DNA of 64,000 bases from Gordius albopunctatus (taxonomy: Eukaryota), in NCBI GenBank assembly GCA_964276515.1, contig OZ193909.1:10664001-10728000 (forward strand). The letters run 5' to 3'. The notes beneath the pieces are model-generated. The model did not search any database. It was not told the DNA's origin and worked only from the letters and a program-made list of their open reading frames with translations. Shown piece by piece: positions 1,226 through 52,148 of this stretch. Numbering within the stretch: the stretch's first letter is position 1; every line of letters starts with the position of its first letter. Position numbers and translations under genes: made by a program.

Positions 1226-2457
1226 GCTTCTAATCAATTCAATTTCCTAAAGCCATATCTTTTATAGCCCTACAAAATTGCTTTTTATGGCCCGAACCCG
1301 CCTCATGCGTTTTATATCTTTTTTAAGCAAATTTTAGAAAAATTTTGCATATAAAATTTATTTTACCGCTTAAGTGTATAATGAAATTGCTATTAATAGG
1401 TGGCTTAAACAATGAGAGTACTTAATTAAAAATCCAGTTTATCTTGCTACAATTTATAAATTGTCATAATAAAACTTAACTTTAAATGTATAAATTTTCT
1501 ATTCATTGATTAATAAATAATGTTTTCTTTATTTTAAAATCAGAATTTAGTTTGTGGTAAATGGCATCGTCATACACTGAGCCAAGTCGCCCATAACTGC
1601 CCCGACCCCTATTATCTTTTACATTTATATTAGAGTCAATGGAAATATAACGACATTGTTTTTATATTTAGCAACCAAGGAGCGCAGTTTTTAACGCTCA
1701 GGAGATTAATAACCTATTATACAAAATATTATGTCATTTACTGTTATCAAGTTGGATGGTAGGGGGGGGGAGGGAATTCCACATTTTGGGGGTTGGTGAA
1801 ATGAGTGGGAGAAAGGGAGTCAGACATTTTGAGGGGTTCAATGAAGTCCACTATAAAAAGCCAAATGTATGCAATGCACTATATCTTACACACTTAATGC
1901 ATAAGTGTACTAAATTTTCGCTCTGCGCACATTATGAATGCCGCGTTGAGCAGCATCGCAATTCTTTTGTCCATCTAAAGATATATGGGTAGGCCACGCA
2001 TCTAGAGCAATCACTAAAGTTGGGTTGGGTCTTGGTGTTAGTTCTATTTTATAAGCATGTTTATAAAATAAATAATCGGGCCTAATGAGATTGATACAAG
2101 TGGGCGTTTACCAAACTCCGGCTTTGCACCCGATCGTGGATGGCATTTTTTGCCAGATGTTATACAATAAACGTTAACAAATTGAAAGTCTATTGATTAT
2201 AAACTTGTCTTCTTCTTTACATCTCAAGATAAAGAAATTTAATCAAACCTAGAGTCATCAATTATCTTAAGTGTTCAACTTATTTAGTTTTAAGTTATGG
2301 CATCAAAAATGATTTGGTTTAAATAACTTGATAACACATTTCTGTTTGGCATCTGTCTTGTATTTTATTAATGTTGCGCGAGTCTTTATTCATGATAACT
2401 TTATTTAATTATAAACCCTCTTACTTATTAATTGTATATCATACCCTATATATATAG

Positions 2458-4340
2458 ATGATTACGCCGACAACGGTGCAAATTCAAAATTGAATGATGG
2501 CAATAACGAGTTCATAGAAAGACATTCCAAAGCACTCGAAGAGCAGTATTACAAGCGTGCAAGTACACATGGACCTGGATATTTTGTTTTCGCCGTTGAG
2601 CATAATAACTTTCCCGATTATTCTTTTACCGTCGATATCGTGGAAGATACAAACGATACCTTTACCAATAAAAGTCTAAATTCTGAAGACGAAAGTGCCA
2701 CTATTACAACAGTTGAAGAGAAAATAGAAAGTTTTGGCGCCTCAAATTATCCACATGAATTTGGATATAAGAATATGTTGATCACGGGTAGTAGCCCGAT
2801 TGTCATTGCTTCGGATAAGAAGAAAGATAATATACGTGACGATACTTTCGCTACAGCTGCTGTAGTGGGGCTGAGAATAAAATTAGAACGATTTCATGAA
2901 ATATTTTTCAATACCTCTACCATTAATGTATGTTATTAATTTTTAATTTCAATGTCTTAATATTAACGTTTGTAGTGTTTTAGTGAAGGGACTATGTGTT
3001 ATCTTTTGGACGAACATGCATATGTAGTATTGTCATCTACCAAAGATCCAAGACATATAGGAAAATTTTTTGGACAAATTGATGGTCGAACTATGCTAAC
3101 ATTATCCAATCATGTTTACAAAAAGTAAAAGTTTAATTACTGTTTTAACCTTTTAGAATTCAACTTTATGATTTTCAAGCTATGTGCGAAACGCAAGTTT
3201 CTATACGAAGTTTTTCATCCGAAAAATTCAATCTATTTATTACGGCATTTATAAAATCAATCGTGGAATATATGCGAATCGCAATTTCTTACTTTTATAG
3301 TTTATTTAATCATTATTTAAAAAATCACAACATTTTTCAATCATGGAACCAAATTTCAGTATTGTCCCCGATCTCAAGCAGATCTCTTATTGCCTTTAAC
3401 AAGCTTGTTAGGCAATTTATATTCGGATATCTGCTATACCCTAGCTCATTAATCTCGTCATTGCCAATTTCCCCAGATAATTCGAATAATATAGCCCAAT
3501 CTACAACATATGAATCCACTTTAGAAGAAGATGATGAAGAAGATGACAGGAATATAAAGGTGTTTAAGCCTCCTCATCATTGCGAAAAAAAGTTTAATTT
3601 GTTCTTAGTTAACCGAGAATTGCTTGCCAGCGAGGTAATAAATTTTGATTTTTTATCGTTTATGCAATCGATTTATTAGGCAAAATACATTTATTAATTT
3701 TTATTCATGCCAGGGCCCCGTATCTCTTATCTCTAACTGCGCCGGTGCAGCTATTTATACATCGTCTGCCAAAAATTACGATAAAATGAAGTTTTGTGGC
3801 AAACCTTTCACCGTGAGCCTAGTGCCTCACACTAATCTAGTGTTAGTTGTAGTGCGAAAAGCTCAATCCGGATTTTTTGGTGATTCAAATTTAGGCAAGG
3901 AATCAAAAAAGAATATTGAATCGCATCAGGGTGGTCAGGGCACGGAGTACTCTATGTACCGAGATATATGTGCTCAATGTGACGACCTTAAATATAATTA
4001 TCAACCTAGGGCCGTGTCCTTAATTCACGAAGAAGTTCGTAATATTGATGACGAAACAGACACTGACGATTCATCCTTTTCAAATAAAGATGTCAAGAAA
4101 AAGAATAAAGAAGTTGATCTTGAATCTCAGCTCGAGTCAGAAGGTAAAAAAAGAAAGAGGAAAAAGTATAGGTGCTATGGCGTAAAAACTCATGTATACC
4201 GTCGAAGACCAACTACTTGTTATTCTCACAATCAGCTTGAAAATACAGATATATGTGGATCCGCTGTGACCTTGTATAATACCAAAGTCAAATATTTTGT
4301 ATTCTCATTATTCGTTGTTATGTGGTGTATGTATCATTAA
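2458..4340 (+). CDS. CACNA2D: Voltage-gated calcium channel auxiliary subunit alpha2/delta, 3' exons (2458-2927, 2976-3124, 3157-3634, 3714-4340); 5' exons not resolved
   Basis: Spliced translation gives EEQYYKRA..AAVVGLRIKLE..CYLLDEHAYVVLS..IGKFFGQIDG..VYKKIQLYDFQAMC..VPHTNLVLVVV..YRRRPTTCY..ENTDICG and a hydrophobic C-terminus, all typical of alpha2delta. GT-AG introns of 48, 32 and 79 nt keep the frame. Confidence 0.88.
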
Positions 4341-7489: not shown

Positions 7490-10400
7490 TTGAAGACATC
7501 AATGAGTATGATAGAATAAGCTTTGCGGGAATAAGGGGAGGGATGCATTAAATAAAATTCCGTTTTCTTTAGGTGGATAATAAGAAGGTGGAATTTTTGG
7601 TGGACACAGGTGTGTAAACTTAAATTTTTTGGCCCAAGAGGAAATGGAAGAAACCAAATATTAAAATAAAACAAATGGATGTAGCAGACCAAGGGAAATG
7701 GGTAAAACGACGGAGCAGGTGGAAACCCCTTAAGGATGCCATTTATGGCTTGGACTCTAAAGTCTACCTCTCGCGGAGCTGAAATAGATAGACTATCGGT
7801 AAAATTGGAGTCGGCGGATCAATCGATATCTTCTACCAACACTCGTAATCTTATGAGTGGTCGCGATTCAGTTAGATCCATGAATAGTTAGTCAGGAAGT
7901 CTAAAACTGACGATGGAAAGGTTCAAGTCTATCTTTATAGACAATCTGGGATGCCTAAGGGCATACGAGTAATTTTATTGAAGCCAAACGCTGTACCAAG
8001 GTTTTGGCCAGCACGGAGAATACCATTTGTTTGGAGGGAGAAAGTAGAAGCCATCTTGCTAAAATGGGTAGAACAAGGGATAATCGAGCCGGTGAAATAT
8101 AGCGAATGGGCTACGCCGTTGGTACCCGTCAAAAAAAGCCAGATGAAAGCTTAAGGTTATACGCCGATTACAGGGTTTCCCTTAACCCGTGGGTAGTAGA
8201 AATAAAGTCTTCGCTTACCTTAGAGGTGCAAAATATTTTATTAAGTTAGACTGTGCTAACGCTTATCTCCAAATCAAGTTAAATAATCGCTCATCGTAGT
8301 TGACCACGATAAACACGTCCTTAGGCTTGTTCGCTTTTAAAAGACTGGTCTCAGCCTAAATGCACGCGTGTTTCAGAAGACCATGGCGTTGGTATTTCAA
8401 GGTCTTTCTGGTGTGCTTTACTACTTAGACGACGTTCTTGTAGTGAGAGCTACAATAGAGGAACACGATAATAACTTGTTGGTAGTGTTGGAACGAATCC
8501 AAGAACGAGGATTACGTTTTAAGCGTAGCAAATGCGCTAGGTGGGCGAGAACTAAAATATTTGGAACATCAATTGGGTAATATAGTCGTTCGTTCCTTAC
8601 ATGCAATTCGTAAAATGCGATCACCTAAAAATAATAAAGAGGCGTTATCCTTTCCTGGGTCGGTGAATTACTACAACAAGTTTATGCATAACATAGCGGA
8701 GATAGCGGCACCTTTATACTTGTTGATAACGAATAAAGTAAGATTTGTTTGGCGGACCAAGGAGCAGGAAGCGTTCGAAGCGTTAAAGAAGATTTCGAAT
8801 AGATCCTGTTCTGACCTGCTTTGTTGCCGATCTACCATTAGCAGTAGCTGTGGATGCGTCACAGCTAGGTGTAGGCGGTCTGCTAATGCATGTAATCGGT
8901 CATGAGGAATGCCCAATTCTATATTTTTTACGAACATTTTCAAAATCAGAGCTTAATTACTCAGTGATTGAAAAGGAGGCTTTGGTGGTGATAGTGAGTT
9001 TGACCCGTTGCCTTGAATATTTAATTGGTTGAAGTTTCAATATTTTTACCGACAACAAACCGCTTGTATCACTTTTTGCAAAGGACAACAGGGATCTATT
9101 ATTAAGTCCGAGGCTTCAAAAATGGTTATTAGCGCTGGTAAACTTCAACTCAACTTTAAAACATCGCAAAGGTAAGTCAAATCACTTGCCAGATACATTA
9201 TCAAGATTGGGAAACGATAATGATGACCTAACTTACGAAGAACTAGAAAGCGAAAACTGCGCAAAAGTAATCATAATAACACAAAATTGTGACGATGTCG
9301 ATCTTGCAAAATTAGTCCAAGAGGATCCAGACTTAATTTTGGTGCTAAATTACTTGATGGGAAATAGTACGCTAGAGACGTTACCATCTACTTATCGAAG
9401 GTTGACACATGAATTGGAGCTCAACAACAACGTGTTACTATGCAACGAAAATATAGTAATTCCGTCAGTGTTGCGACCTCGTGTACTCGAATTACTTCAT
9501 GCAGGTCATACGGGCGTAGCCAAGATGAAAGGTCTGGCGAAGAGACACGTCTGGTGGCCCAAGATATCACGAGATATTACCGTGTTCGTAGGACAATGCG
9601 GGCAATGTGGAAAACTTGCCAGGACGCCAAGACACGACAAGAAGGCGAGATGGCCGCCAACAAAACAAGTTTGGTAAAGAATACACCTTGATTTCTTTGA
9701 TTTTGAAGGAAATATAATATATATTATCCTCGTAGATTAGATGCGCACTCCAGTTGGGTAGAATATAAACAAGTGAGCAGGTTATCTGCGGAGGTAGTAA
9801 TCGATTTCTTAAAAAATATTGGTGCTTATGGTCTCCCGAAGACGATTTTATCCGACAACGGCACCGCTTTTGCCAGCGTCGAGTTTAAAGAATTTTTTAG
9901 TAAATAGAGAATAGGGCGTTACTTATCCCTCCGTATTATCCGAGTACAATGGACTCGCAGAAAGGATAGTGGCTATGGTAAAACGATGGTTGAAGAACGC
10001 TAAGGTCGAAAAGGACGGGACATGGCTTTATCGACTACACAATAACGTCGCAACAAGGTTCCCTTCTCGACAACCGGTTAGCGAGATATTTCTGGGTCGT
10101 TTACAACACACGCATGGATGTTACAATCTGCGCGATTAGACACCACATCACATAGCGAAACTAAATATAAAATCGGTGATGCTGTATGAGCGCTTAATTA
10201 TATTGGGAAGGAAAAATGGCTAAAAGCAACGATCCTATCTCAGAAGGGTACAAGAATGTACGAGATAGAAGTACTAGCTTCTCCGGGTTGGCAAGTGCGT
10301 CACATGGAACAATTACGCTCTAGATTTATATAACAATCCTTTTGTGTTTTATATATATGGAATACGTAACCGAGTGGGTAATCGAGGAAGTACGCTTGAG

Positions 10401-10995
10401 AGTAATCGGACGCGAAAGAAGGGGTAGGCCAAGGCCGATCACGTTCGAGAGCCGTGAAAGAAGGCCGATGGAACCCTACTTGAGAGTTCGCCACGAACAT
10501 ACCCTCTCAAATGAAAGGGCGCGGATATACAGGGAACGTGTCGGTATACACCTAGACCTATTACGGATAGACATAGCAACGCGGTATCAAGACACCGTGG
10601 CCTGCACCGAGAGGTAGCCCTGCGCGCAGCCCAAACAACGACGACGCAACGCCCCCAGAATCGCCCAAGATGTCCCAAGGTAATAAAAGAAGAGAGAGCG
10701 AGTACGTCACCCCGTCCGCAAGTTAGAATGAGGCAGACCGGAGCCTTCTGCCGAGAATGTAGCCGTTGTCACCAAATGCCAATGTGTTGGCGAACGATCC
10801 CGTTCATGCCAGCAAGGCTAGACAGGACGCTAGCGCCGATAGAATCGATAGCGCTGGTGGAGTCGGTTGTGGTGGAGATGGTTACGGTGGGCACTACTCA
10901 GGTCGTGGTCAGCCCTGAGGAAGAAATGCACTTATTGGAGAAAACTCCAGGGCAGGAGCTCACGGATCTGGTGGTTCCTCAATTTGAAAGGATGA
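7490..10995 (+). mobile_element. Degenerate Ty3/Gypsy LTR retrotransposon, copy A (protease-RT-RNase H-integrase plus 3' extra ORF); many stops and frameshifts, no LTR seen
   Basis: LVDTG protease motif (~7600), SEWATPLVPVKK, YYLDD, DAS..VIEKEAL, LHAGHTG..WWPKI..CGQC, SDNGT; collinear with copy B at 16300-20150. Confidence 0.92.
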
Positions 10996-11066
10996 GTAAC
11001 CAACAGAACTCCATGCGCTACTTACTATTATTTGATGGTGTAAATGTACCTTTACGTATTTTGTAA
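10357..11066 (+). pseudogene. Disrupted extra ORF downstream of integrase in Gypsy copy A (Arg-rich, C-x2-C-x3-H-x4-C motif)
   Basis: MEYVTEWVIEEVRLR..RRGRPRP..ERRPMEPY..; FCRECSRCHQMPMC..QVVVSPEEE..DLVVPQFERM; homologous to 19453-20153. Confidence 0.65.
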
Positions 11067-12680: not shown

Positions 12681-14794
12681 ATGCCAAAGGTACGAAGGAG
12701 TAAGAAACCTCCACCTGAAGGATGGGAGTTAATTGAACCCACATTAGATGAATTAGAGCAAAAAATGCGAGAAGGTTTGTGTCATCTTTGTCTGTTAAAC
12801 TTTTGTTTAAATAATATTGTCTTAATATATCTATATGTATATTTTCCTTCAATATTTTAGCTGAAACTGATTCTCATGAAGGTAAAAGAAAGGTTGAGGC
12901 TTTATGGCCTATATTTAAAATTCACCATCAAAAAACAAGATACATTTATGACTTATTTTATAAAAGAAAAGCTATATCTAAAGGTAAATTAAAATTTTTG
13001 AATATACAATGTCTTTTAGAGTTATATAATTTTTGCCTTGATGAGGGACTGGCTGACAAAAATTTAATTGCCAAATGGAAAAAAGAAGGCTATGAAAATT
13101 TGTGCTGCTTAAGATGTATACAAACTCGTGACACAAATTTTGGCACTAATTGCATATGCAGAGTTCCCAAAAATAAACTTGAAGCTGTAAGCTTATAAAA
13201 TTTATAAGATAATAATTTTTTATTATATTATGAAAATGATTTCATTTATTCATATACTTATGAATAACATTATGATCATGTTGATAATTGTTTTCTTGTA
13301 AATGATTTTAATAACCGCACAAACATTTTAAACTGAAAATTTCTTTTCATTAATTGCTATAAATATTTTAAGTATGTTAATACATTGCATGCAAATGATA
13401 TTTTGCTGCTCAGTGATTTGTAAACATTTCAGGCCCATGTTTTGCCTCTTTAAAATTTAATCTCACAATATTTATTCTAATTCCTTCCAAAATTTATCAA
13501 CATATCTGTTCTAACCTTTGAAACATTGGTATTGAGATCCTAAGTATTTGTTAGAAAAATGTAAATTTATTCAATTTTTAAAATATTAACTTTTGTACAT
13601 GCCAGCCATATTTGGTTTAGTTTTTTAATCTATTTGACTGAAAATATTTTAAATCAATATCATGCATACAGTTTTTAGTATAGTGATTTTAACTTAGCTT
13701 TACCATTGGGCAACGTTGCAAATTTATGCAATTTCATAAATAGTTTAAATAACAATTTTAGGATGTCTCAAAATAATTTATAATTTTCACTCTTATATTA
13801 TTCTTTTATTAAAAAATATAGTGTATTTACAACTTTTTAAAGCTAAATTTGTGGAAAATTGAAGATTATAAATATAACCCTACGCAGAAACTTATGAATT
13901 TATTTTGTAATGGACCCTGATACACAAATAAGTTTATATCAGTTTTAAATTCATTCTATTGTAATTAAATGTCCATTTGAATTTTCTAAAAAATTGAATA
14001 TTTATCATTGGTTTAAAGCTAACACACAGGTCTAAAAAAAGTCAATACTTTAATTACGTAACTTAATATGCTCTATAATTTTTATTTCAAATTTATTTTG
14101 CCCCCAAATGCATTTTTTAAGACCCAGTCATGTTAGTCTCCTTTCAAATCCATTTATCTTTTTTTACATTTAAATTAAAATAATTATATGGCATAAAGGT
14201 CTGGCACACTTATAGTAACTGACATGGCCGGACCCACAATAAGCCTAAATATATTAATGCTGTTTTGTTCAGATTTCAATATAATTTTAAACTTTTCATT
14301 TGGCATAAACTACAAATTTGATTAAAAATTATAAGAGCAAAAATTTTAGGAAGTTCTAGCTCGAGAGGCACCTATTAAGCATTCCATGTGTTGCTAATGG
14401 TAAAAAGGTTTTGAATAGCCAAATTAAAATTTTGAAAGCCCATTCAAATTTAGTATTAATTATATGATTTTTTCCATCTTATTTTCTAAATTATTTTCTT
14501 TAAATCCATGGTGAGTAACTATACAAATTTGCACATTAATTTGTCCTCAGTTTTCATGCTTATTATAATTTAGTTTTCCTAAAATTGGTTTGTATTTATG
14601 ATTGCTCATTTTAATTAATTATAGCTCCATATTAACTTTCTAATTTAATACGTAGAAAACTTAATAAAATAACATAAATAGCATATAGATTGATATTTTT
14701 ATTTCCAAAATATCAAGTCATTATAACTATGCTTTAAATTTAGGGACGAGTTGTTGAATGTATACATTGTGGATGTCGAGGATGTTCAGGATAA
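12681..14794 (+). CDS. BUD31: Pre-mRNA splicing factor BUD31/G10; exons 12681-12774, 12861-12983, 13020-13186, 14744-14794 (144 aa)
   Basis: [98 protein letters not shown]; all introns GT-AG; exon sum 435 nt. Confidence 0.97.
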
Positions 14795-16020: not shown

Positions 16021-16070
16021 CGCAATTAAATTAAAAGAATACTCTAATTAGCGCCATCTATGTTGTTTTT

Positions 16071-19000
16071 GTGATAGTCCATTCCCCAATAAATGTCCCA
16101 AAACCCCCTCCCAAAATAATTAGCACAATATCCCCTCCCCTAATACAGGTTCCAACCTCCCCTTGCCTACTAGAGATACCAAAACCCCTTACTCTAATAA
16201 GCAGCCCCACCCCCTCAATGTCCCTGCCAACCTCAATAACAAACCTTACAGTGGATAGCAAGCCCTCCTCGGGATGCTTGCCTTTAAAAATAAGGGAAGC
16301 AAGGAATGATGTAGTAAACGCTCCTGGTGAATATAAGGAGGATAGTAGGTTAAGCTTGGCAGGATTAATGGGAGGGTGGTATTTAAATAAAAGTCCGTTA
16401 GCTTGTTTAGGGATAGATAATAAGAAGGTAGAATTTTTGATGCATACGGGTGCGACCATTAGCATTATGGGTGCAACCAAATTTAAAAAATTGTGGCCTA
16501 ATAGACCCTGGGAAAAACCGAATATTAAAATAAAGCAAGTGGATGGGTCAGAGATTGTAGTAATAGGTAAAGTTAAGGTAGAAGTTATTATTGAGAATAA
16601 TAAATTAACTTTACCCCTCTATATCACGTCCGTGGAGATAAGACCGATTCTGGGGTGGGAATGGCTCAAGGTGATAGGGCCGTTGAACAAGTGGTTTGGC
16701 TTGTGCGAAAAAATCCAATGTAATGGACCACAGGAAGAGAGTGGAAAGGATTTTGGCGGAGCAGGTAGGAATCCCTTAAGGATGCCATGTATGGTTTGGG
16801 CTCTAAAGTCTACCTCTCCCGGGGCCGAAATAGACAGACTATCGGTAGTAAAGACGGAGTCGGGGGATCAACCGACATCTTCTACCGACACTCTTAATCT
16901 TATGGGTGGCGATGCAGTCCGTTCCCTGAGTGGTTGGTCAGAAAGTCTACAGCGGATGTTGGAAGGGTTCACGTCTATCTTTATAGACGAGCTAGGATGT
17001 CTAAGGGGATACGAGTATGACATCCTACTCAAGCCAGGCCCTGTACCAGGGTTTTGGCCAGCGCGAAGAATACCATTTGTTTGGCGGGAGAAAGTGGAAG
17101 CCATCTTGCTACAATGGGTAGAGCAAGGAATAATCGAGCCGGTGGAATATAGCGAATGGGCTACGCCACTAGTACCAGTCAAAAAGCCCGACGGCACCTT
17201 GCGCCTTTGCGCGGACTACAGGGTTTCTCTTAACCCGTGGGTAGTAGAAATAAAGTATCCTCTACCCAGAATCGAAGAAATTTTCGCAAATCTCAAGGGT
17301 GCAAAATATTTTAGTAATCTGGACTTTGCTAACGCGTACCTCCAAATCAAGTTAAATAGCCGCTCCTCTAAGTTGACCACAATAAACACATCCTTAGGCT
17401 TGTTCGTGGTTAAAAGACTGCTTTTCGGTCTCAGCCTAAGTGCGCCGGTGTTTCAGAAGACCATGGCGTCAATATTTCAAGGTCTTTCTGTTGTGTTTTA
17501 CTACTTAGACGACGTTCTGGTAGTGGGAGCTACAATAAATGAGCACTACAATAACTTGTTGGCAGTGTTGGAACGCATACAGGAACGAGGTTTACGGGTA
17601 CAGCGTAGTAAATGCGCTATAGGAGTGACAGAACTAAAATATTTGGGGCATCAATTGGGTGATGGAGTCGTTCGTCCCTTACAGAGCAAGGTGGATGCGA
17701 TCCTTAAGATGCGACCACCTCAAAACCAGAAAGAAACCCTATCCTTTCTGGGATCGGTGAATTACTACAACAGGTTTATGCCTCAAATTGCGGGGATAGC
17801 GGCACCTTTGTACTTGTTGACAACCGACAAGGTAATATTTGTATGGCGGACCGAGGAGCAGGAAGCGTTCGATACGTTAAAGAAGATTTTAACGGAAGGC
17901 CCTGTGCTGACATGCTTTGTTCCCGATCTACCATTAGCTGTAGCGGTGGATGCGTCTCAGCTAGGTGTAGGCGGTGTGCTATTGCATGTAATTGGTCAGG
18001 AGGAACACCCAATTTTATACTTTTCACGAAAATTTTCCAATGCAGAACATAATTACTCGGTGATCGAAAAGGAAGCTTTGGTGGTGGTAGTGAGTTTGAC
18101 CCGTTGCCGTGAATACTTGATTGGTCGAGGTTTCGATATTTTTACCGACCACAAACCGCTGGTATCACCTTTTGCAAAGGACAATAGGGATCTATTGTTA
18201 AATCCGAGGCTGCAAAAATGGTTATTGGTGCTGGTAAGTTTCAATGCAACTATAAAATACCGTAAAGGTAAGTCAAATCACTTGCCTTGCCGGACACATT
18301 ATCAAGATTGGGAAACGATAATGATGCCCTAACATTCGAAGAGTTAGAAGGCGAAAACTTTGCAGAAGTAAACTTAATAACAAAAAATTGTGGAGATGTC
18401 GATCTTGCAAAATTAGTCCGAGAGGATCCAGACTTAATTTTGGTGTTAAATTACTTGACGGGGAAGAGTACACTAGAAACGTTACCAGCTACTTATCGAA
18501 GCTTAATAAACGAATTGGAGGTCAACAACAACGTGTTACTACGCAACGAAAATATAGTGATTCCGTTTGTGTTGCGACCTCAAGTACTAGAATTACTTCA
18601 TGCAGGTCATACGGGCATAGCTAAGATGAAAGGTCTAGCGAAAAGACACGTCTGGTGGCCCAAGATATCAAGAGATATTACCTTGTTCGTGGGACAATGC
18701 GGACAATGCGTAAAACTTGCCAGGACGCCAAGACACGACAAGAAGGCGAGATAGCCGTCCACAACACAAGTTTGGGAAAGAGTACACCTGGACTTCTTTG
18801 ATTTTGAAGGAAAACGATATATTATTCTCGTAGATGCTCACTCGAGTTGGGTCGAATATAAGCAAGTGAGCAAGTTGTCTACGAATGTAGTGGTCGAATT
18901 CTTAAAAGATCTTGCAGGGGCTTATGGTATACCGAAGACGATTGTATCCGACAACGGCACTGCTTTTACCAGCGTCGAGTTCAAGGAATTTTATAGTAAA

Positions 19001-19429
19001 TGCGGTATACAGCATTTACTTACACCTCCGTATCATCCGAGTACGAATGGACTCGCGGAAAGGCACGTGGCTGTGGTGAAACGATGGTTGAAGAACGCTA
19101 AGGTCGAAAAGGACGGGACTTGGCTTTATCGACTTTACCAAAACGTCGCATCAAGGTTCTCTTCTCGACATCCGGTTAGCGAGATGTTCTTGGTCCGTTT
19201 GCCACACACGCCTGTTGATATGATGTTACAATCAGCGCAATCGGATACCAGATCACAGGGCGATTCTAAATTTAAAATCGGTGATGCGGTGTGGGCGCGT
19301 AATTATATTGGTCAAGAGAAGTGGTTAGAGGCTAAGATCCTATCTCCGAAAGGTACGAAAATGTACGAGATAGAGGTTCTAGCTTCTCCTGGTAGACACG
19401 TGGAGCAGTTACGCTCTAGATCGATATAA
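16071..19429 (+). mobile_element. Ty3/Gypsy pol, copy B (protease, RT, RNase H, integrase); 5'-truncated, lightly disabled
   Basis: 753-aa ORF with FLMHTGAT (catalytic D changed to H), LRLCADYR, YYLDDVLV, DAS/EKEAL/TDHKPL. A 5-bp ttgcc duplication near 18283 causes a frameshift, there is a TGG>TAG stop at 18752, and then the integrase core SDNGTAF..PPYHPSTNGLAER. Confidence 0.95.
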
Positions 19430-19452
19430 TCATCTTTTTATATTTTATCTAG

Positions 19453-20153
19453 ATGGAATACCGTACCGAATGGGTGGTCGTAGAAGTGCGTTTGAGAGCG
19501 GTAGCCCACGGACGAAGGGGGAGGCCGAGACCTGTCGAGTTTGAGGTCAGAGAGAGGCGGCCTATGGAACCCTACATTAGCGTGCTGCACGAGGACACTC
19601 GCAAGTATGAAAGGGCGTCAGGTCGGCACGGACGGGCAACTCGTCACGAGGCAGCTAGACCTCATTCGGGCAGGGAGAGTGACGCGGTACACAGACACCG
19701 TGGCCAGCCCGAGGTTTAGCTGGACTGGTTGACCTGGGGCAGCAGCAAAGTGTGGCCCCGCCCGCGGTCCGAAATATACCGACGCGAGGTACATCATTTC
19801 GCCAGGGACGTCCTGAGGCAAGGACGGAGGAAAGAAGGAGACCGTCGCGGGATCCGCAGAAAGGACGGCCGGCAGTACCAAGGCAAGCTAGAGCCTTCTG
19901 CAGGTGATGCAGAAGCTGGCACCGTTTGCCAAGGTGTAGACGAGGGATCCCGTCCAGACCGGCAAAGCAAGAAAGGACGGTGGAGCCGGTAGAAACGTTG
20001 ACGACGGTGGAGCCGGTACGTGTGGAAGGGGTTACGATGGACACCAGCCAGGTCGTGGTCAACCCGGAGGAAGAATTGACATTATTAGTAAATACGCCCG
20101 GGCGGGACAGCTTGGACCTGGTGGTCCCTCATTTTGAAAGGATGAGGTGTTAG
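19453..20153 (+). pseudogene. Disrupted extra ORF between integrase and 3' LTR in Gypsy copy B
   Basis: MEYRTEWVVVEVRLR..RRGRPRP..ERRPMEPY; LDLIR..TRYTDTVA; AFCR*CRSWHRLPRC; QVVVNPEEE..DLVVPHFERMRC*; matches copy A across frameshifts. Confidence 0.65.
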
Positions 20154-20499
20154 GATCAGTAACCTTTTCCATGCGTGTATTATTATGATAACTACAATTT
20201 TTGTTTATAATGTAACGAATAGACAAAGTATCTGGTTAAAAAGAATCACGTGTTGTATAATCGCATGTTTTGGATATCACCTTATCTTTTCTATTGTATA
20301 ACCTGATCTATCGCGTGATGTAATTTGAATATTGTTGGGGCGAATCGTTTGGTTGGAATATTGTTCAGCGAGAGAAATTATAATTATTGTTCGGCGAAAT
20401 CATCATTAATATTGTTCGCGATATACTCAGAATAAAATTATAAAGCCCTCAAGGAAGACTAGATTAAATAGTTATTAAAATAAGATTTTTATATAAACA
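20148..20499 (+). repeat. Putative 3' LTR of Gypsy copy B
   Basis: Purine tract gaaaggatgagg followed immediately by TGTTAGG at 20148; AATAAA at 20431; candidate end ...taaaca at 20499. No second LTR in the window to confirm the boundary. Confidence 0.55.
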
Positions 20500-20539: not shown

Positions 20540-20735
20540 AGTCTTGTGTTTTTAAACACACTACTTCTTCCCCTAAAAGTTCTCTCCTTCATATAGCCTA
20601 GACCATCAAATCCCAGGCTACCTCGTCTACTTCCACCACGACAGGAGGCTCTAGGAATTACCTTAATCTAAATCTGAAATTATTAATCATAGTTAATGAC
20701 TTGGTTTACCCGGCTACAAAGCACCATCCACTGTC
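20540..20735 (+). mobile_element. Degenerate LINE AP-endonuclease-like fragment; near-identical segment at 23137-23273
   Basis: Translates VVLCF*T..LDHQIPGYLVY; the ~120-bp block agg.tacctcgtctacttccaccacgacagg..caccatccact recurs at 23137-23273 with an internal indel. Confidence 0.45.
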
Positions 20736-23272
20736 AAAGGAACCTATATTATGCCCAAAATCCTTCTGGCTAGTCAAAAAATATATGTGCTCGCGGCCAC
20801 ACATTATATAAACCACGATCCATGATATACATAATTTCCATGGACCCGACTCAGCGTCTCAAGCATCAGCACTCAATAGTAACGAGGAAATTAATTGATT
20901 AATATATTCAGAGCGATTTAGAAAAGAAATTTAGGATCAAAGGAGTTGGGGAAGTTAGAGATCACATCCCTATGAGAAGCATAAGAAGGATTTCCTCTTC
21001 GAAATCGCCGATGATTGAGATTAATAAAATAAAGTAATTGACATTCTGTCGGAGATTGCTTAAAAAGACTAAAGACTGCATAGTTTAAAACAGATTTGAA
21101 TATCTAAGTAAATAAATCAACAACTTTCATTTGAACCCTCCACCAGCTATGTCGAGGATGACCCTTTAACCTTAAAAGGCAGGGTCTGAGGTTAGAAGTA
21201 GTGAACGCAATTGTATTAGAATGGCAGTGGCGACATGTGGTGTTAATTCGACGAAAATCAGCGGGGAAGAGATAGCTTTAGGTTGGCTTCGAAGTCGTGC
21301 AACCTAGCTAGGTATCTCTGACAACTCCATTAAAATTAATGATAGTTCAAAAGAAGGTTTCTACATCGCTGCCTAAATATTATGAAGTGCCGTAACATCT
21401 GTCCGTCACTAGAATCTTGGCCCATAGACCAAAAGATTGCTTAAATCAAATATATTTATGGATATAAAGTGCTGTCAAAAACGACACCATCCTGAATATC
21501 TACGTAGTTTATACAAAGCGATGGATTGTATTAATAATCATTTATCTTATATTATCTAACCATCTAATTTAATCTTTATAATGATTTGATTTTTATTGCA
21601 AACTATATTAGTTATACAGAATTCAGGGTCATGAGCGCTTAGTCGATTAGTTTTTGTCTTTGAACATAGCTCTCGGTTCATATCCTGCTTTCGGCACCTT
21701 CTTTTAAAATATGCACATTTTATCACATCGTCAACACAGCTGTCAGGCCTGGATAGCCGAGGGTCACCTCACATTCAAATATCTAAAGAAACTCACCAAC
21801 TAATGTGACGGCAGCTATTGGGAATTAATTATGCGGAATCCATTTTAATAAATAGGGTTAAATTGCAAAGCGCTATAAAAGTTAATTTAGAGAAATTTTA
21901 TATTTATATCTGGTGTTTAAATTTAAAGGTCTTAGCTCATATTACCCGGCGTTATTATATCAAAATTAATATGAGTACAGCTGTTAAAGTTCAAAAAAAT
22001 TAGTTCAAGTTCATATTTTTTAAAAAGTAGTTAATTTGAATTGAAGTTCATTTCAGAAAAAACAAACTACAGTTCTTAATTCAAATTTTACAAAATGAAC
22101 TAGAAAAAGTTCTTTATAGTTCTGTTTATTAAAAAAATATATTAAAAAAATTTTGATCCGATCCGAGGAGTTTATGAAAAACGTTTTATCTGATCCAAAA
22201 TCAGTTTTTTTAAATCTAAGTCTGATCCGCAATTTAAAAATTCTATGAGTCCCATTTTTATTGATGATTGAGTAATTATTTAAACTTTTTATTGTTTATT
22301 TTAAATTAGAAATATTCTATTTAAAATCTAATTTAATAAACATTTCTCATATACCAACAAGCTTTTTTTACAAAACTATATCAGCTATATAATTTTGTAA
22401 AATAATTCAATTTGTAAAACTTTTATTAATCATTTCAAATAATATAATAAATATAATTACAATTTATAATAGAAAACAGGGGAGAGTAGATGGGAATTAG
22501 ACTTCAATAAAATATTATTTTCAAAATTATCATTTAATAAAGAAGAACGTTTATCCTTAAAGATAAGTTTTCCAAAACTTAACTATCGATAGGAGCACTA
22601 GATGGAAGGCAAACGTTATATTTAATAAAAATTTATTTTAAATTGGGGAATTCATTATTTATTTCAAACTATTATTCAGTTTTATAAAGTTTTCAATGAT
22701 ATCTTTATTAAAGTTATCACGTCATATCCAATAGCGTTATAAATATTTTCCTGACAGTCTAATCAGATATTAAAGAATCAAGATGCATGTCCAAAATTAT
22801 AACACTTTTTAAAAGAGGCTAAGCAATCCATTAGTCCGTGTCTCGGTCTAGACGACCAAACCATCTATATATTTGACAAAGCATAAGATCTTCCAGACTT
22901 TTCGGCCTTTTTTGATGTTTTAAGCCATTTCACCATACCCAATCCCAGTATTATTATCCAATCATGGACGCCTAACGGCCATGATTGGACCTGTGGGTTC
23001 CGACAGGGCATGCCCTGTTATCCCCCACAGCGTTTATTGATTATAAATCTATAAACTATGTATCGTATTTATCAGGTGTAGTGACGGTAAATAAACATAC
23101 AACAAAAATGACGCGTAAGGTGGCGGTTAAAAAGACAGGTTACCTCGTCTACTTCCACCACGACAGGAGGCTCTAGGAATTACCTTAATCTAAATCCCAA
23201 CCCCTTATCCATTGTTGAAATTATTAATCATAGTTAATGACTTGGTTTACCCGGCTACAAAACACCATCCAC

Positions 23273-23389
23273 TATTGGAATAAATGGGAAAAAGGTGTTA
23301 TAAAGATAAACGTCGAACGCGAATTTCCAAAGAGCGTTTGGTAAACTAGGGTTTCTCTTTATATATGCGTGCATAGTGATGCATGCGGG
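23273..23389 (-). repeat. 3' terminal direct repeat of the retroelement
   Basis: 117 bp with 2 mismatches versus 26038-26154; lies ~20 nt after the RNase H stop codon. Confidence 0.95.
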
Positions 23390-23409
23390 GGTTAGTTAGG
23401 TTCTGCGCC

Positions 23410-25112
23410 TTAATTTATTGAAATTTCGCCACCGGCCCAGGTAGACCAGTCGAAGAGATCTTCTTCGTCGAACACGTCCGGTATCGTTTTGCTTTCCGGG
23501 GGTAGTCCCGATAGGATGGATGGAACTGTATATCTCTCCGGGGGGAGCCAGGTGCACGATGGGTAGTCTGCTGGGTTTTCCTCCGTCGGAATCCATTGAA
23601 TGTTATACCTTATTGCTAGTAGCGCGTTTAGGCCATATTCTTTTACGAATCTTGAGATCAGTTCCTCGATGATCGGTGAGTTTGATCCCCCCTTCATCAG
23701 TACGTAGTACGCAGTGGTAGAGTCCGTGCGGATTCTTGGGAACGGGGTGCCTTCGAACCGAGATACTAGATATCCGTATATTGCTCCCAACGTTTCGCAC
23801 AGCGTGATGTGCGGGTTCGGGGGGAGCGTGAAGTTGAGTGCCGCGGCTGCGTCCTCGAATGTTATGGACAGGTTGTTGCTCCCCCATGTGATCCCAATAT
23901 GTTTGTCTGATGCGTCTGTGTATACGGTCAGGTCCGGTGGTACGTAGAGTGGAATGCGCTGCTTAAGGGATGTAACTATGGCCAGAAGTTTAAAGCATGT
24001 GTGGTTCATGTTAAAAAGCCTTGAGCGATCTAAAAGCTTTGACATGCCCGTTAAGTTGTATAGGAAGTAATTAAGTACCCCTAGCGCTTCCAGCAGGATT
24101 TGGGTAGGTGGCGGTGTATTGGATGCGAAGGCAAAGAACAGAATGTCCGCCGCGTATTCCAACCTGGTGATGACCTGTGGTGAACACCTGATGGAGTGGT
24201 CCATGAATGATAGATGGAGGCCGAGGTATTCGATGTCTCGTCCGGGAAGGATCGACGATTTTCGTGCGTTCACGGTTAGCCCCCATTCCGCTGCGAGGGT
24301 GAATATGGATTCTAAGTCTTCTTGTACGTCGGAGTATGAGGACCCGTAGATGAGTATGTCATCGAGGTACACTTATACTTGCATTTCTGGACCGCTTTCT
24401 TTGTTAGGTCGCAGACTACCATTTGTAAAACGTATGGGGAGTAAGAAGCCCCCATAGGTAGTACCTTGTATCTATATTTTTGTGACTTGTATGTATATGC
24501 GGCAAATTTTTGGGCCGTTATGTTCAGTGGGATACTGAAGAAAGCGGCTTTTAAATCTACCTTGGCTACCCAATTTGCTTTGCTTAGCTGCCTTGACGTT
24601 AAGGGGATGGATGCGAGTTTAACGGGGTAATGTTTATAATTTTTGGATACCTGAGATAGGTCCGTGATTACCCTTGCATCCCCGTTGGCTTTCGGGATAA
24701 AGAATGTTGCCGATTTTATGATGTCCTTGTTTGTGGTTTCTACAACTCCCGCATCGACCATGGTTTGGAAGTATTTTGGCTTTCCCCGCGATATCGCCTT
24801 TCTCCGGGACGTGAGGAATATGCCATTGTGTTCCCGAATTTTTTCCATGTCGAATTTTGGGGTGAATCCCTTCCGTGCTATTCTCCTGGTAAAGGGTGAT
24901 TGGAGGAAGTGCGGTCGGAGTTTGGAGGTATGAATGTCTAGTTGACCGGTGGGAGGTGGAAGTTGTGGTTCTTTGTTCCACCGGAATATGGATTTGTGGA
25001 GGCCAAAAATGGGCATCGTTTCCGAGCCCATCTCCCGGCCGAAGGCGGCCTCCACTTGTTGAATGCGCTGCTCGACTTCGGGGCGAGGAAGAAAATATCG
25101 GAGTATTCCGTG
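23410..25112 (-). pseudogene. Reverse transcriptase-RNase H of the retroelement; one frameshift near 24375
   Basis: YFQTMVDAGVVETT..FFIPKANGDARVITDLSQVSK..KVDLKAAFFSIPL..KVLPMGASYSPYVLQ / VYLDDILIYG..IEYLG..VYTDASD..HITLCETLG..RTDSTT..WIPTEENPADYPS. Confidence 0.9.
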
Positions 25113-26000
25113 TTAGTAGGCAATTGGATCGCCCCCGTCGCCCCTGACGGGAGTTCGGACGGAGAGAATATCCAGCGGCGCGTCTCCCGAATTTGGAATA
25201 TAATACGTGCGAGCCAGCGGGGAGACCCGGATGAATTCCCTCCGTCGAGAAGCGGTACACCCGAGGGCCCGACTTCCCATGATCCTGCCAGTGCCTTCAT
25301 TCTGCGCCTTACTCCTGGCAGAGGCCGGCGTCTTTTTGACGTGGCGGCTCTTTGGGAGGCTTCTGTCTCTGCCAGCGCCAGGAAATAACTGTCTTCTTGG
25401 CTGGACGACCTCTAGATTGGGGATATTCCAGTCTTCCGCGAAAGACTTATCGTTCCTGACGGCCGTGGCCCAATTGAAGTTTATGGCCGTGGCGAGCGTT
25501 GTAAGGCGTGCCGTTGTTTCCTTTAGTAAAGTATCGGGGGAATCCTCCGAGAGGGTATCCGCGACTAGGAATATATATTGGCTTTCCTTTCTATCTCTTT
25601 GCGATACTTTGGTGGGGAATTGGGCCATGAGATCCTTTAGTTTGTTAATTTTATCCTCGATCTCACTGAGCTTCTCCGCTGTGGTCTTGGGGGCCGGTTC
25701 TGGTTGGACTATGTTTATGGCCGGCGGAGGAGCGGCTCTCTGGACGTTGAGTTGTTGAATAAGCGTCGCGATTGTCTGTTGGGATTGGGCGAATTATGCT
25801 TGGGCCCTCCTGTTTTGCTCTGCAATGACTCTGAGGATTTCTGTCATGTCCCCTTGATCGTCCCCTCCCCTACCCGATGGGGTTGGGGAGCCGTCCCTGG
25901 ACGAACTTTCCTCCCGTATATTATTGGCCGGGTTTTGGGGCGGTATTAGGGGCGCTGGTGCTGGTTTACCTAAAGGGTTAGTTCGAGCGGGTCTTACCAT
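25113..26000 (-). pseudogene. ORF1 (gag/core-like) of the retroelement; one internal TAA at 25794-25796
   Basis: ORFs 26000-25794 and 25628-25113 share one frame. Pro-rich N-terminus, Gln-rich/coiled segment, helical region, basic tail; no CCHC knuckle. Confidence 0.7.
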
Positions 26001-26037
26001 TTTTCCTGAATTCCTTGATTAATTTATATATGATTAA

Positions 26038-26154
26038 TATTGGAATAAATGGGGAAAAGGTGTTATAAAGATAAACGTCGAACGCGAATTTCCAAAGAGC
26101 GTTTGGTAAACTAGGGTTTTTCTTTATATATGCGTGCATAGTGATGCATGCGGG
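26038..26154 (-). repeat. 5' terminal direct repeat containing TATATAAA and a small hairpin
   Basis: Minus strand TATATAAA at 26130-26123; hairpin tttaccaaa-cgctc-tttggaaa at 26110-26089. Confidence 0.9.
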
Positions 26155-42310: not shown

Positions 42311-44881
42311 CTAACAAGCGTGGTTGATCGAAAGCAAAGAATTCGTCTTGTAGCTCTTTATTAAGGGGTACACGGGGATGGGCTGTTGAAGACTATTAGG
42401 AGGGGCGCCCTGCTGCTTCTTCTTCTTATTTTTCCGCCACCTAGCGACGGCCGGTTCAACGAGCATTATTAAGCCAGAGAAGAGTATAAGCGCGCCAGCG
42501 AGATAAAAGGTAGATGCATACGATTTGGTTATGTCGCTCACCCAACCCCCGATAGGTGGTCCGGTGAGGCTGCCGATGCCTTGAGCAGTTAGGAGTAGGC
42601 CGTAACTCGATGTAAATTCTTCCAACCCCATCAAATCGACCAAGATTATGGAGGTGAGACTGTAGTTGGCGCTAATTAAAAAGCCGTACAGGGCTGACAA
42701 TATGCACAAGCTGTAAAAGTCGGAGAAAAAATTGAAGGCGAAACAGCTCAGTCCGCACCCCGCCGTGGCGAAGGTGTAAAGGTAAATAGTGTTGAATTGC
42801 GGTCTATCAGCGAGGTAGCCGAAAAATATTTGACCTATCGTGTTGACGATGCCCATGATGGAGAGTAAAAAACCGGCGCGATAGGGCGATATGCCGTAGG
42901 AAATGGCCCGATCCACGACGTACAAATGTGGTATATCGTCGCAGAGGCAGAGGAGAAAGTTGGAGATGAAGAATAGGAGGTAAGTGATATCCTTCAACAT
43001 GGTGAAGTCGCACATGGCTTTAAGGGTGTCGATCAATTCGCTAAACAACTCGGCTACCGTGTAATTCGCGTTGCCGCGTCTCAAGCTGCTCGTGTACACG
43101 TCGGGACAACTAGAAGCCCTTATCATATATTTGGGGGTGTTGAGCATGCAGCCCCGACTAGTTATGTTAGAACGGTTGAGGCGGAGGAAGCGGTAGCGCT
43201 CGGCCTTACGCATTTTTTCCACGTGCTGGAACCAGAGCTCTTGCGGCGTGCAGTGGTGATGATGCGCTGTGCCACCGGGTTGCTGAGAAATGCTGCTGCG
43301 CCCTTTAACGACGCCATCACTAGCGGCACCCGAAGTTTTGTGCATCGGGGTAGTAGGGGGCGATGTCACCCTGGGCTGGGCTTGGTTGAGGATGTCGGGG
43401 CGAATTAGGGGTAGCAGCTGGATGAGGTTGTCGATGTTGTAATCCTTGTGCAACGATTCGTAAGCTTCGTTAGCGAGTATCGGGTTATTCATTAGGAAGG
43501 TGGGTATGTCCAGGGTCGAGTGAGCGCGATATTTGTCGAGATCTTCCTCCGAAACTGAGTTGGGGGGATAGTAGTCGTTATTTTGTAGATTAATTACGTC
43601 ACCCGTCAACAAGGCGATGTTGCCGTGCTGATCCTTAGTTCGGTCCTGAAAATCGTCAAGCCGGGCTTGATATTTTCGTTTCTTCCGCTCGACGGCTAGA
43701 TTTTCAGGCCATTCCACCGGCCTCATCAGAGCACCCAAAACCACGATGTTGAGGAAGAGGCCGGATAAAAGGAGCGTCACCCCGCGCCAATGGTAGCGTT
43801 GGATAAGAGTTTCGATACAGGCGCCGAAGGCAAAGGCGCCAACGCCCGACCCCGATGTCGAGAGGCCGGTAGCGAATGCGCGTCGCGACTCGAAATAAAA
43901 GGCAACTACAACGATGGAAGCCACGTTAACGAGGGATAGCCCTAGTCCCGTAATCAGGCCCATAGTGACGAAGAGAGCCTCGATGCGCTTGACAAAAACG
44001 CTAGCGCCAAAGCCGATGAACGAAATCAAACCACCGAGAATGGTCATCTTACGACACCCGTACGTATCGATTAGGATACTAGCTACGGGGCCGGCTAGCA
44101 AGGGAACGGCGTAATAGATGGAAACGACGAAGGCTGTTTTACCGCGACTTTGTTGAAAGTGATCCAAGAAGGCAACGTACAAAACACCGAACGCGAATCC
44201 CACCCCGTCCGTAATGAAGTGGGTCATGAAGGAGGCAAAAACTATAACCCAACCCCATCCCCCGTTAGGAGCAGGTGGTATAGTAGATTCGGAAGAGGAT
44301 GAAGAGGTGTCGTCTTCGTCAACATTGACATTAGCACCTATTGCCAAAAATATATATTATTTACTTTGGGTTTGGATATACAAGCAGTTAAAATTTGGTA
44401 CTGACTGGTATAAATACCCAAATCGTTTAATATATGAAGAATGGTTTAAATGTTAATTTTATATAACATGTTGTGAATTACCGTGTGGGCCTCCTTGGTA
44501 GCTGGAATTTTGATTGACTTCGAGTGGGGGCGGCCCGAGGGTAGGTATCCCATTGCAAAAATTGTTTCGAGAATTTTTTTGCAGGGAAAGGGCGGATTGA
44601 TAATGTGCATTACCTCCTTTGGCCATCTCCAAACGTCCGTTTGCTTGGATCCTTGGACGCTGTAAAAATTTTGGACTTGCACCGGGGGAGGACTTACAAT
44701 GCTTCGGTGTAAAGATAAGCTCGACCGAGCGCGAGTGATTTAATTTGGGTTGGTCGTGCCTTGGCATCGTGGAAGATAATAATTTTGATATGAAGGAGCT
44801 ACTCCTAGGCAACATTGGTTTGTATGCAGTATTGGTGTTTGTTTGGTGTTTACTTTTGGCAGAACCAACGTTTGATTCCAT
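42311..44881 (-). CDS. Monocarboxylate transporter (SLC16 family, MFS); exons 44881-44482 and 44337-42311 (~808 aa)
   Basis: PPAPNGGWGWVIVFASF signature, YFESRRAFATGL, ~12 hydrophobic helices with a long central loop (RASSCPD), GPPIGGW; a 144-nt phase-1 GT-AG intron joins the upstream ORF in frame. Confidence 0.92.
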
Positions 44882-48229: not shown

Positions 48230-48911
48230 CAGATAGTAGATTGAATTGCTATTTGTTAAAATTTAGTAACTTACAATATTTGCTTATATTATATACCATA
48301 AATAAATAAAGAACTTTGCCCCCCCCCCTATTTTTTATCCTCTTTCTCACCAGGGGTGAGGGGGGGGCGTATTTTTACTCTCTTTGATAACAGAGGGGAA
48401 GGGGGTGATTTGCCCCCCCCCCCTTTTACCCCCTTTCTTACCAGGGGGAAGAGGGTGAATTGATCCCCCCCTCCTTATTTTTTACTCTCCTTCTTACCAA
48501 AGGGGAGGAAGGTGATTTGCCCCCCCCCCCATTTTTACCCTCTTTCTCGTGATTTGCCACCTTTCCCTATATTTTACTCTAAAAAATAGGGGGGGGGGGA
48601 GATCACCCTCTCCCCCTGGAAAAAAAGAGAAAAAAATTAAGGGGGGCAAATCATACCCCCCCTTCCCATCCGAGTGAGAAAGAGGGTAAAAAATAGAGGC
48701 GGGGGGCAAATTATCCCCCTACCCCCTGGTAAGAAAAATAGTAAAAAGTAAGGTGGGGGGGGGGGGGGGTAAATCACCCCCCCCCCCTTGAGAAAAAGGG
48801 TAATTAGAAAGAGGGTAAAAAATAAGGGGTGCGGGGCAAAGTTCTTAATTAATATGAGCAAATATTGTAAGTTACTAAATTTTAACAAATAGCAATTCAA
48901 TCTACTATCTG
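48230..48911. mobile_element. Foldback-type long inverted-repeat element with internal C-tract/G-tract subrepeats
   Basis: cagatagtagattgaattgctatttgttaaaatttagtaacttacaatatttgct.. is the reverse complement of the segment ending at 48911; the inner arms are repeated tttgcccccccc..ttttaccctctttct units mirrored on the other side. Confidence 0.85.
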
Positions 48912-52000: not shown

Positions 52001-52148
52001 CAGTCGCGTCAGTGAGTGCAACTCTGTTGCTGCATTAAAACTACCCAAGCGTCCTACCGCTTTAGCATTTACGAATGAGGATGAAAAGTTTATTCGAGAT
52101 TTTGTATCTTCGTTATGCAGGCATTGTGATGATCAATGTGATGGATAA
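49093..52148 (+). CDS. TRIM37: E3 ubiquitin ligase TRIM37 (RING, B-box, coiled coil, MATH); exons 49093-49320, 49866-50036, 50103-52148 (~814 aa)
   Basis: [35 protein letters not shown]-box [81 protein letters not shown]. Confidence 0.95.

What the first reader, a model, noticed from the sequence alone, without database searches (positions are those of the whole stretch)
23273..26154. Hepadnavirus-like/DIRS-like retroelement with no integrase or recombinase, shaped like an integrated ~2.8-kb circle
Seen: a GC-rich 2765-bp unit plus 117-bp terminal redundancy, carrying only ORF1 and RT-RNase H. The RNase H stop is ~20 nt from the repeat, so there is no room for a 3' tyrosine recombinase, and no D-T/S-G protease, DDE integrase or HxxR YR motif appears in the listed ORFs. 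Established: DIRS RTs typically read DAY / LPFG / N..AD.LSR, whereas hepadnaviral P reads DFSQFSR, SAAFYH, PMGVGLSPFLL and NPADDPSR. This element has DLSQVSK, KAAFFS, PMGASYSPYVL and NPADYPS (hepadna-leaning) together with YLDD and TDAS (DIRS-like). Inference: an endogenised relative of HEART/nackednavirus-like elements, or a new YR-less DIRS lineage. The unit size is close to that of nackedna/hepadnavirus genomes.
Basis: partly seen in the sequence, partly recalled or inferred. Interest (0 to 1): 0.88.

Follow-up and report, generated by a model that had tools for sequence, protein, structure and literature searches.

The report
Integrase-less retroelement with hepadnavirus-leaning RNase H
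A 2.9-kb mobile element in an animal genome carries a likely capsid-type gene and a reverse transcriptase but no detectable enzyme for inserting itself, has several diverged relatives that stayed under selection, and likely belongs to the poorly understood grade between jumping genes and hepatitis-B-like viruses rather than being such a virus itself.

Summary
The anatomy is confirmed: a minus-strand unit of 2765 bp plus a 117-bp direct repeat, ORF1, then RT-RNase H ending 18 nt before the repeat. Six-frame scans found no recombinase, integrase, protease or terminal protein. It is a small family, not a one-off. Two DNA runs hold diverged copies, one 12% diverged with the same RNase H-to-repeat junction, and 15 of 21 listed changes in the pol tail are synonymous (23% expected). 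The hepadnavirus reading is only half right. The RT scores 116 bits on a DIRS/PAT profile against 51 on a hepadnavirus profile, and its tree position is unresolved. The quoted motifs also occur in PAT-like and VIPER-like elements. The RNase H falls sister to hepadnaviruses (92/86, not decisive). Terminal protein and DR1/DR2 were not found, so it is not filed as an endogenous nackednavirus. Best reading: a recombinase-less lineage of the DIRS/VIPER/HEART grade that likely copies itself through a terminally redundant RNA and inserts without its own enzyme. HEART, Ngaro and nackednavirus sequences could not be put in the trees, and the outer ends of other copies are untested.

The parts
26038..26154 (-). 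5' direct repeat (A), 117 nt; TATATAAA box at 26130-26123; no TG...CA ends
25113..26018 (-). ORF1, probable gag-like gene (first ATG near 25999): Pro-rich start, coiled coil, predicted three-helix bundle, basic tail; broken by a stop at 25794-25796
   Evidence: model pLDDT 85-90 over the bundle; gag-like role is inferred from position
24312..25112 (-). pol 5' piece, same frame as ORF1 after one TAA: about 135-aa pre-RT region with DIRS-like spacing, then RT motifs up to motif B
24996..25057 (-). Predicted RNA hairpin, -38.1 kcal/mol, three-way, UUCG and GAAA loops, containing the first two ATGs of pol
   Evidence: z -4.86, 0 of 200 shuffles as stable; strongest window of a scan over the whole element
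23410..24372 (-). pol 3' piece after the frameshift: YLDD, thumb, RNase H (TDAS, E, TDS, ENPAD), acidic tail; no methyltransferase; AATAAA at 23419-23414 beside the stop
23273..23389 (-). 3' direct repeat (A); TATATAAA at 23365-23358
23136..23272 (+). Left flank: 85% match to 20614-20732. That paralog continues with the same four letters as the right flank at 26156, which suggests insertion with at most a 1-nt overlap and no target-site duplication
   Evidence: beyond those four letters no homology (score 39 against shuffled mean 36)

Best explanation
This is a decayed but young copy of a small family of retroelements that encode only a likely gag-type protein and RT-RNase H between two 117-bp direct repeats, and that likely belong to the deep grade holding DIRS, VIPER, HEART and hepatitis-B-like viruses. 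Shown: the anatomy, the family, purifying selection on pol, the same recombinase-less 3' junction in a diverged copy, and no terminal protein. Inferred mechanism: the TATA box in the 5' repeat starts a full-length RNA that ends inside the 3' repeat, possibly using the same TATAAA as poly(A) signal. RT and RNase H copy this terminally redundant RNA inside ORF1 particles and rebuild both repeats by strand transfer. The double-stranded DNA (linear or closed into a circle) then enters the chromosome without an element-encoded enzyme, most likely by host break repair, which would give the clean junction without a target-site duplication. Pol is predicted to be made at low level by readthrough or re-initiation controlled by the hairpin over its first ATGs.
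For: Family and selection: variant contigs in both runs, up to 57 differences in 411 nt; 15 of 21 listed changes in 23422-23530 synonymous against 23% expected, p 4e-6, and 14 of 18 places at third codon positions. A 105-nt contig with 13 differences bridges repeat and RNase H end (23331-23435) in both runs, and 3 contigs of run X1 show the same repeat-to-leader junction in other copies. The repeats differ at 2 of 117 nt, so this insertion is young. No recombinase, integrase, protease, methyltransferase or terminal protein in six frames; no match to a VIPER-like recombinase ORF (best E 0.27); no B repeats or inverted ends. Grade: RT lies outside the gypsy rows (97/95) but unresolved among DIRS/PAT, VIPER-like and hepadnavirus rows; RNase H sister to hepadnaviruses at 92/86 and 84/88; best tblastn hit of the 3' piece among 106 fetched loci is a hepadnavirus contig (E 7e-6, residues 2-272). 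Kojima 2025 (PMC12440569, passage) says HEART's mobilisation mechanism is unresolved.
Against: The RT profile score favours YR elements (116 bits) over gypsy (91) and hepadnaviruses (51); the RNase H also scores higher on the YR profile (28) than on the hepadnavirus one (18.5, tied with the VIPER-like row at 17.9). AU tests reject none of the placements tried (RNase H with YR elements p 0.16; RT with hepadnaviruses p 0.33, with gypsy p 0.11). The query is a long branch at 25% identity to its nearest row. Pfam and PHROGs also missed the recombinase of the VIPER-like control L029, so profile absence is weak; the argument rests on lack of room. No pooled loose end from other copies' outer junctions appears among the 12 of 90 rows shown, so precise shared ends are not shown. 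No genome assembly was held, so a recombinase-bearing master was not searched for. No primer-binding site or polypurine tract was seen, so priming is unexplained.
Confidence: 0.5

Rival explanations
1. A derivative of a tyrosine-recombinase retrotransposon (VIPER-like order gag-YR-RT/RH, or Ngaro-like) that lost its recombinase long ago, keeps its own RT, and is integrated by a recombinase supplied in trans by a related family.
For: RT scores best on the YR-element profile and joins those rows in the best mixture-model tree, weakly (64/69). The pre-RT region has DIRS-like spacing, 40 residues against 37-39. The VIPER-like L029 shares PMG, xGFF, ENPAD and an RT-RH gene in last place. A junction with a 1-nt overlap and no duplication fits recombinase insertion (PMC7192593, passage). 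A more abundant repeat matches about 25270-25400 and could be a helper family. A DIRS copy with no listed recombinase ORF also turned up (L098).
Against: No split repeats, inverted repeats or internal complementary region, which those elements use to rebuild the circle junction (PMC6681497 section 6). No recombinase remnant. RNase H groups with hepadnaviruses, not with the VIPER-like row.
Confidence: 0.32
2. An endogenised proto-nackednavirus-like virus: a 2.77-kb circular genome with a highly diverged core (ORF1) and terminal protein (the roughly 190 residues before RT), integrated as 1.04 units.
For: Unit size matches the smallest nackednaviruses. By eye, the basal nackednavirus KNDV-Lp-2 shares DLxAAF, LPMGxxxSPYVL and WGLxxNxxKS with this RT (PMC12691608 supplement 4). 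RNase H tree. Proto-nackednaviruses are reported from rotifers (PMC12691608).
Against: No match to Pfam DNA_pol_viral_N, which hits a control at E 3e-58, nor to a profile of 9 hepadnavirus terminal proteins. The GLY priming motif, present in 9 of 9 controls, is absent. No core match by profile (E 0.45). No DR1/DR2 above chance (17 of 60 shuffles as long). YLDD, not YMDD. Several diverged genomic copies.
Confidence: 0.1
3. A gypsy-like LTR retrotransposon that lost protease and integrase, the direct repeats being short LTRs.
For: Two direct repeats with a TATA box; gag and pol in frame; RT scores 91 bits on the gypsy profile; AU test does not reject RT with gypsy (p 0.11).
Against: No TG...CA, primer-binding site, polypurine tract or 4-6 bp duplication. 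RNase H scores 2.6 bits on the gypsy profile. Gypsy rows form a starred clade without it in all four trees.
Confidence: 0.05

Closest known systems
HEART retroelements (Gong and Han 2018; paper not held, RT rows seen in PMC12691608 supplements 4 and 6)
   Same: Invertebrate genomic RT elements near hepadnaviruses with no resolved mobilisation mechanism (PMC12440569, passage). By eye they share the motif-B ending P-x-x-x-Q-M with this RT.
   Different: The Ixodes HEART rows have LPFG and (Y/H)(I/L)DN, this element LPMG and YLDD. Their ends and gene content could not be seen, and they could not be put in a tree here.
VIPER/TATE-like tyrosine-recombinase retrotransposons (PMC6681497; fetched example L029)
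   Same: RT-RH is the last gene, RNase H ends in ENPAD, no methyltransferase; their RNase H is reported to group with hepadnaviruses.
   Different: They carry a recombinase ORF between gag and RT and split direct repeats A1...B1-A2-B2; known from kinetoplastids; RT very distant from this one.
DIRS1-like and PAT-like retrotransposons (fetched examples L098, L020, P0004, P0010)
   Same: Best RT profile and tblastn scores; pre-RT spacing; YLDD, (I)EYLG, TDAS.
   Different: They have a methyltransferase after RNase H, a recombinase, and inverted or split repeats; this element has none of these.
Nackednaviruses and proto-nackednaviruses (PMC5604429, PMC11551314, PMC12691608)
   Same: Genome size about 2.8 kb, two main ORFs, RT-RH at the end of the second, NPAD-type RNase H.
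   Different: They have a terminal protein, a core, DR1/DR2, YMDD and an episomal circle; none was found here.

Membership tests
DIRS order (YR retrotransposons) | Tyrosine recombinase ORF | tested here: not met
   No family hit in six frames, no match to a VIPER-like YR ORF, and no room 3' of RNase H or between ORF1 and RT. The profile libraries missed the control YR, so room is the main argument. This copy only.
DIRS order (YR retrotransposons) | Inverted repeats plus internal complementary region, or split direct repeats A1...B1-A2-B2 | tested here: not met
   Only one simple direct repeat pair; no B repeat.
DIRS order (YR retrotransposons) | RT-RNase H of DIRS type, no protease | tested here: inconclusive
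   Best profile score is YR, but tree support is 64/69 and RNase H goes elsewhere. No Ngaro row was available.
DIRS1-like / PAT-like | Methyltransferase after RNase H | tested here: not met
   pol stops about 50 residues after NPAD; no Dam family hit.
Blubervirales (hepadna-, nackedna-, proto-nackednaviruses) | Terminal protein with GLY priming motif | tested here: not met
   Controls were hepadnaviruses only.
Blubervirales (hepadna-, nackedna-, proto-nackednaviruses) | Core protein | tested here: inconclusive
   Profile of 22 hepadnavirus core rows gives E 0.45; single-sequence model of mean pLDDT 57 gives only generic helical bundles.
Blubervirales (hepadna-, nackedna-, proto-nackednaviruses) | DR1 in the untranslated region and DR2 in the 3' RNase H region | tested here: not met
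   Best match 11 nt with one mismatch, reached by 17 of 60 shuffles, and that place varies among copies.
Blubervirales (hepadna-, nackedna-, proto-nackednaviruses) | Epsilon stem-loop near the 5' end of the RNA | tested here: inconclusive
   No stable fold in the first 12 windows (z above -1.6); the strong hairpin lies about 1050 nt inside; no Rfam hit.
Blubervirales (hepadna-, nackedna-, proto-nackednaviruses) | Episomal circular genome | not testable with these tools
   Only assembled contigs were available, and a circle junction reads the same as the 3' end of the integrated copy.
HEART | RT clade sister to Blubervirales | not testable with these tools
   HEART sequences were visible only in a paper's supplement and could not be entered; compared by eye only.
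LTR retrotransposons (Ortervirales) | DDE integrase, protease, TG...CA LTRs, PBS/PPT, 4-6 bp target duplication | tested here: not met

The most novel reading that the evidence does not exclude
This is a complete, end-defined member of the lineage between recombinase retrotransposons and hepatitis-B-like viruses: a DIRS-type RT, a hepadnavirus-type RNase H, no terminal protein yet and no recombinase any more, replicating through a terminally redundant RNA and a 2.77-kb circle. It would show what HEART-grade elements look like whole and how they move.
Probability: 0.25. Interest if true: 0.87.

Novelty: new variant of a known kind. Interest (0 to 1): 0.62.

Why it matters
How hepatitis-B-like viruses arose from retrotransposons is open: the proposed ancestors (HEART) are known from RT fragments, and a 2025 paper calls their mobilisation unresolved (PMC12440569, passage). 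A young copy with defined ends, a selected family behind it and no integration enzyme makes the question testable: map the RNA ends, look for circles, compare insertion junctions. Even under the main rival it is an unusual architecture, a DIRS-grade RT between simple direct repeats. Seven literature searches listed no paper describing this layout, but the original HEART paper and Repbase were not available, so it may already be described there.

Tried and rejected
Word-based protein searches found no relative of either pol piece (0 of 1008 and 0 of 2018 candidates); a four-row alignment query returned 19 proteins, all nearer to the other rows. The exhaustive HMMER search of representatives never ran (queue full, ten tries), which leaves the closest natural relatives unknown. 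The search for related loci in viral contigs found none. A motif scan of metagenome contigs gave 55 loci, of which 16 had an RT-like tblastn match at E under 0.05, mostly gypsy plus one PAT-like family and one VIPER-like element; none was a close relative. The ESM Atlas gave unnamed eukaryotic RT clusters at 0.94-0.96 (Mollusca, Oomycota, Preaxostyla, Chordata), leads only. The ORF1 fold search listed no hepadnavirus core among 50 viral rows (best E 0.025) and only generic three-helix bundles in the PDB (Z up to 10.5, rmsd 1.8, 77 aligned), which excludes nothing. The model of the 3' pol piece was too poor to use (pLDDT 37). No RNA holder was listed. Rfam gave nothing. Two internal 12-mer repeats (23401/25300, 23952/25061) were rejected as DR1/DR2: wrong place, and 62 of 300 shuffles hold at least one. 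Joints 23046-24691 and 23047-23422 were first read as a longer element, then set aside: 22960-23065 is a separate abundant repeat, probably inserted into or beside other copies. Overlapping frames of 220 aa (no ATG) and 157 aa match nothing. Tree rows left out: L073 (unrelated RT) in all trees; 10 or 11 of 18 hepadnavirus rows, and 4 gypsy and 2 YR rows. Earlier-scan look-ups by place, sequence and HEART words returned nothing.

Full report
Setting. The window is animal DNA (inferred from gypsy, RTE-type LINE and Helitron ORFs and intron-split host genes recognised by eye; those names come from no call). No assembly is held. Two DNA runs of one study hold about 75% of the element's sampled words; they may be the source sample and are not independent support.

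Observation. The 117-nt direct repeat (2 differences), the 2765-bp spacing, the GC contrast and the ORFs are as described. ORF1 has a stop at 25794-25796 and pol a frameshift near 24375. ORF1 and pol share one frame across a single TAA at 25113-25115; whether this is programmed or decay is not known. Six frames read with X at stops give RVT_1 only. A hairpin at 25057-24996 covers the first two ATGs of pol (z -4.86, 0 of 200 shuffles); it was picked as the best window of a scan, so the z-score is somewhat flattered.

Ends. The repeat has a TATATAAA box, no TG...CA, no primer-binding site after it and no purine tract before the 3' copy. The left flank matches 20614-20732 at 85%, and that paralog continues with the same four letters as the right flank. 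This suggests a clean insertion with a 1-nt overlap, but it rests on four letters. There is no B repeat and no inverted end.

Family. Contigs laid on the element include variants with 57 differences in 411 nt, some at about half the depth of unique flanks; depth here is not a copy number. In one search a 105-nt contig with 13 differences spans 23331-23435 in both runs, with 59 nt in the repeat and over 40 nt inside, so a second, 12%-diverged copy has the same recombinase-less junction. Of the 40 variant rows shown (6 more not shown), 21 lie in the pol frame: 15 are synonymous against 23% expected, and 14 of 18 places are third positions (changes were classed one at a time and are not independent). 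The copies therefore diverged as replicating lineages, not by decay after one insertion. Against precise shared ends: none of the 12 loose-end rows shown, of 90, pools host flanks at either outer boundary.

Relationship. References were fetched by motif scans and one alignment search: 18 hepadnaviruses, 8 DIRS/PAT-type proteins, 1 VIPER-like element and 9 gypsy rows. Group labels are mine, from domain content; L020 and L029 were selected on a motif like the query's, which biases towards them. RT: 116 bits on the YR profile, 91 gypsy, 51 hepadnavirus, the last within the 19-56 range of the four DIRS/PAT rows printed. RT trees leave it unresolved outside gypsy. RNase H: sister to hepadnaviruses at 92/86 under the mixture model, not starred, and the alternative is not rejected (p 0.16). 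It ends in NPAD like hepadnaviruses and the VIPER-like row, unlike DIRS/PAT rows. By eye only, the RT shares about as many motif residues with KNDV-Lp-2 as with DIRS rows and slightly fewer with Ixodes HEART rows.

Virus tests. No terminal protein by Pfam or by a custom profile, no GLY motif, pre-RT spacing of 40 residues as in DIRS/PAT rows (37-39) rather than about 25 as in the five avihepadnavirus-type rows printed. Core inconclusive. DR1/DR2 at chance level. It is not filed as a blubervirus. It also fails two defining DIRS-order features (recombinase, repeat layout), so it is not filed there either, although its RT works most like theirs.

Mechanism. Shown: gene content, repeats, family, selection. 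Inferred: promoter in the 5' repeat, RNA ending in the 3' repeat, regeneration of both repeats by strand transfer, insertion without an own enzyme. The YR model needs an internal template of the circle junction (PMC7192593, passages; PMC6681497, section 6), which a simple A-body-A unit lacks; this is why I rank host repair slightly above a recombinase in trans. An AATAAA beside the pol stop could instead end transcripts before the repeat, which would argue against terminal redundancy. The primer is unknown.

Literature seen. PMC12691608: main text parts 1-2 of 3; supplement 4 parts 1 and 6 of 20 plus passages; supplement 6 passages; supplement 7 cut; supplement 10 part 1 of 3. PMC5604429: passages and section 8. 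PMC6681497: passages and section 6. PMC11551314, PMC12440569, PMC12241316, PMC6282271, PMC7192593: passages. Gong and Han 2018: not held, nothing seen; its figures and supplements may describe HEART ends and bear directly on novelty.

Verdict. A real, unusual, multi-copy retroelement without an integration enzyme, from the DIRS/VIPER/HEART grade, with a moderately hepadnavirus-leaning RNase H. New variant of a known kind; interest 0.62. The bridge-to-hepadnavirus reading stays open at about 0.25.

Noticed in passing
window 25270-25400: A far more abundant repeat matches this part of ORF1 (14-23 contigs share one variant; bin depth about 7-11 times the neighbouring bin). It could be a helper or derivative family or a shared cis-element; unexplained.
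   Followed up: no
window 22960-23065: Short abundant repeat with A-rich loose ends, separate from the element; contigs join it to 23422 and 24691 of other copies.
   Followed up: partly
window 7700-11000 and 16035-20400: Two gypsy-type retrotransposon copies about 9.1 kb apart, 72-89% identical; the second has a long protease-RT-RH frame and an integrase.
   Followed up: no
window 54880-57889 and 57890-62602: An RTE-type LINE (endonuclease and RT) followed by Helitron Rep/helicase fragments, named by eye.
   Followed up: no
window 48230-48911: MITE-like element with 62-nt terminal inverted repeats (98%) and internal G/C-rich subrepeats.
   Followed up: no
window 2415-4340, 12815-13198, 42311-44356, 50103-52148: Host genes recognised by eye: calcium-channel alpha2-delta-like, BUD31-like, a monocarboxylate-transporter-like single ORF of 681 aa, and a TRIM37-like MATH protein.
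   Followed up: no
L098 2734-5507: A DIRS1-like gag and RT-RH-methyltransferase pair inside a viral contig, with no recombinase ORF of 120 aa or more listed, within a 6.6-kb duplicated unit.
   Followed up: partly
L029 1-4649: A near-complete VIPER/TATE-like element from a metagenome whose recombinase is missed by Pfam and PHROGs.
   Followed up: partly
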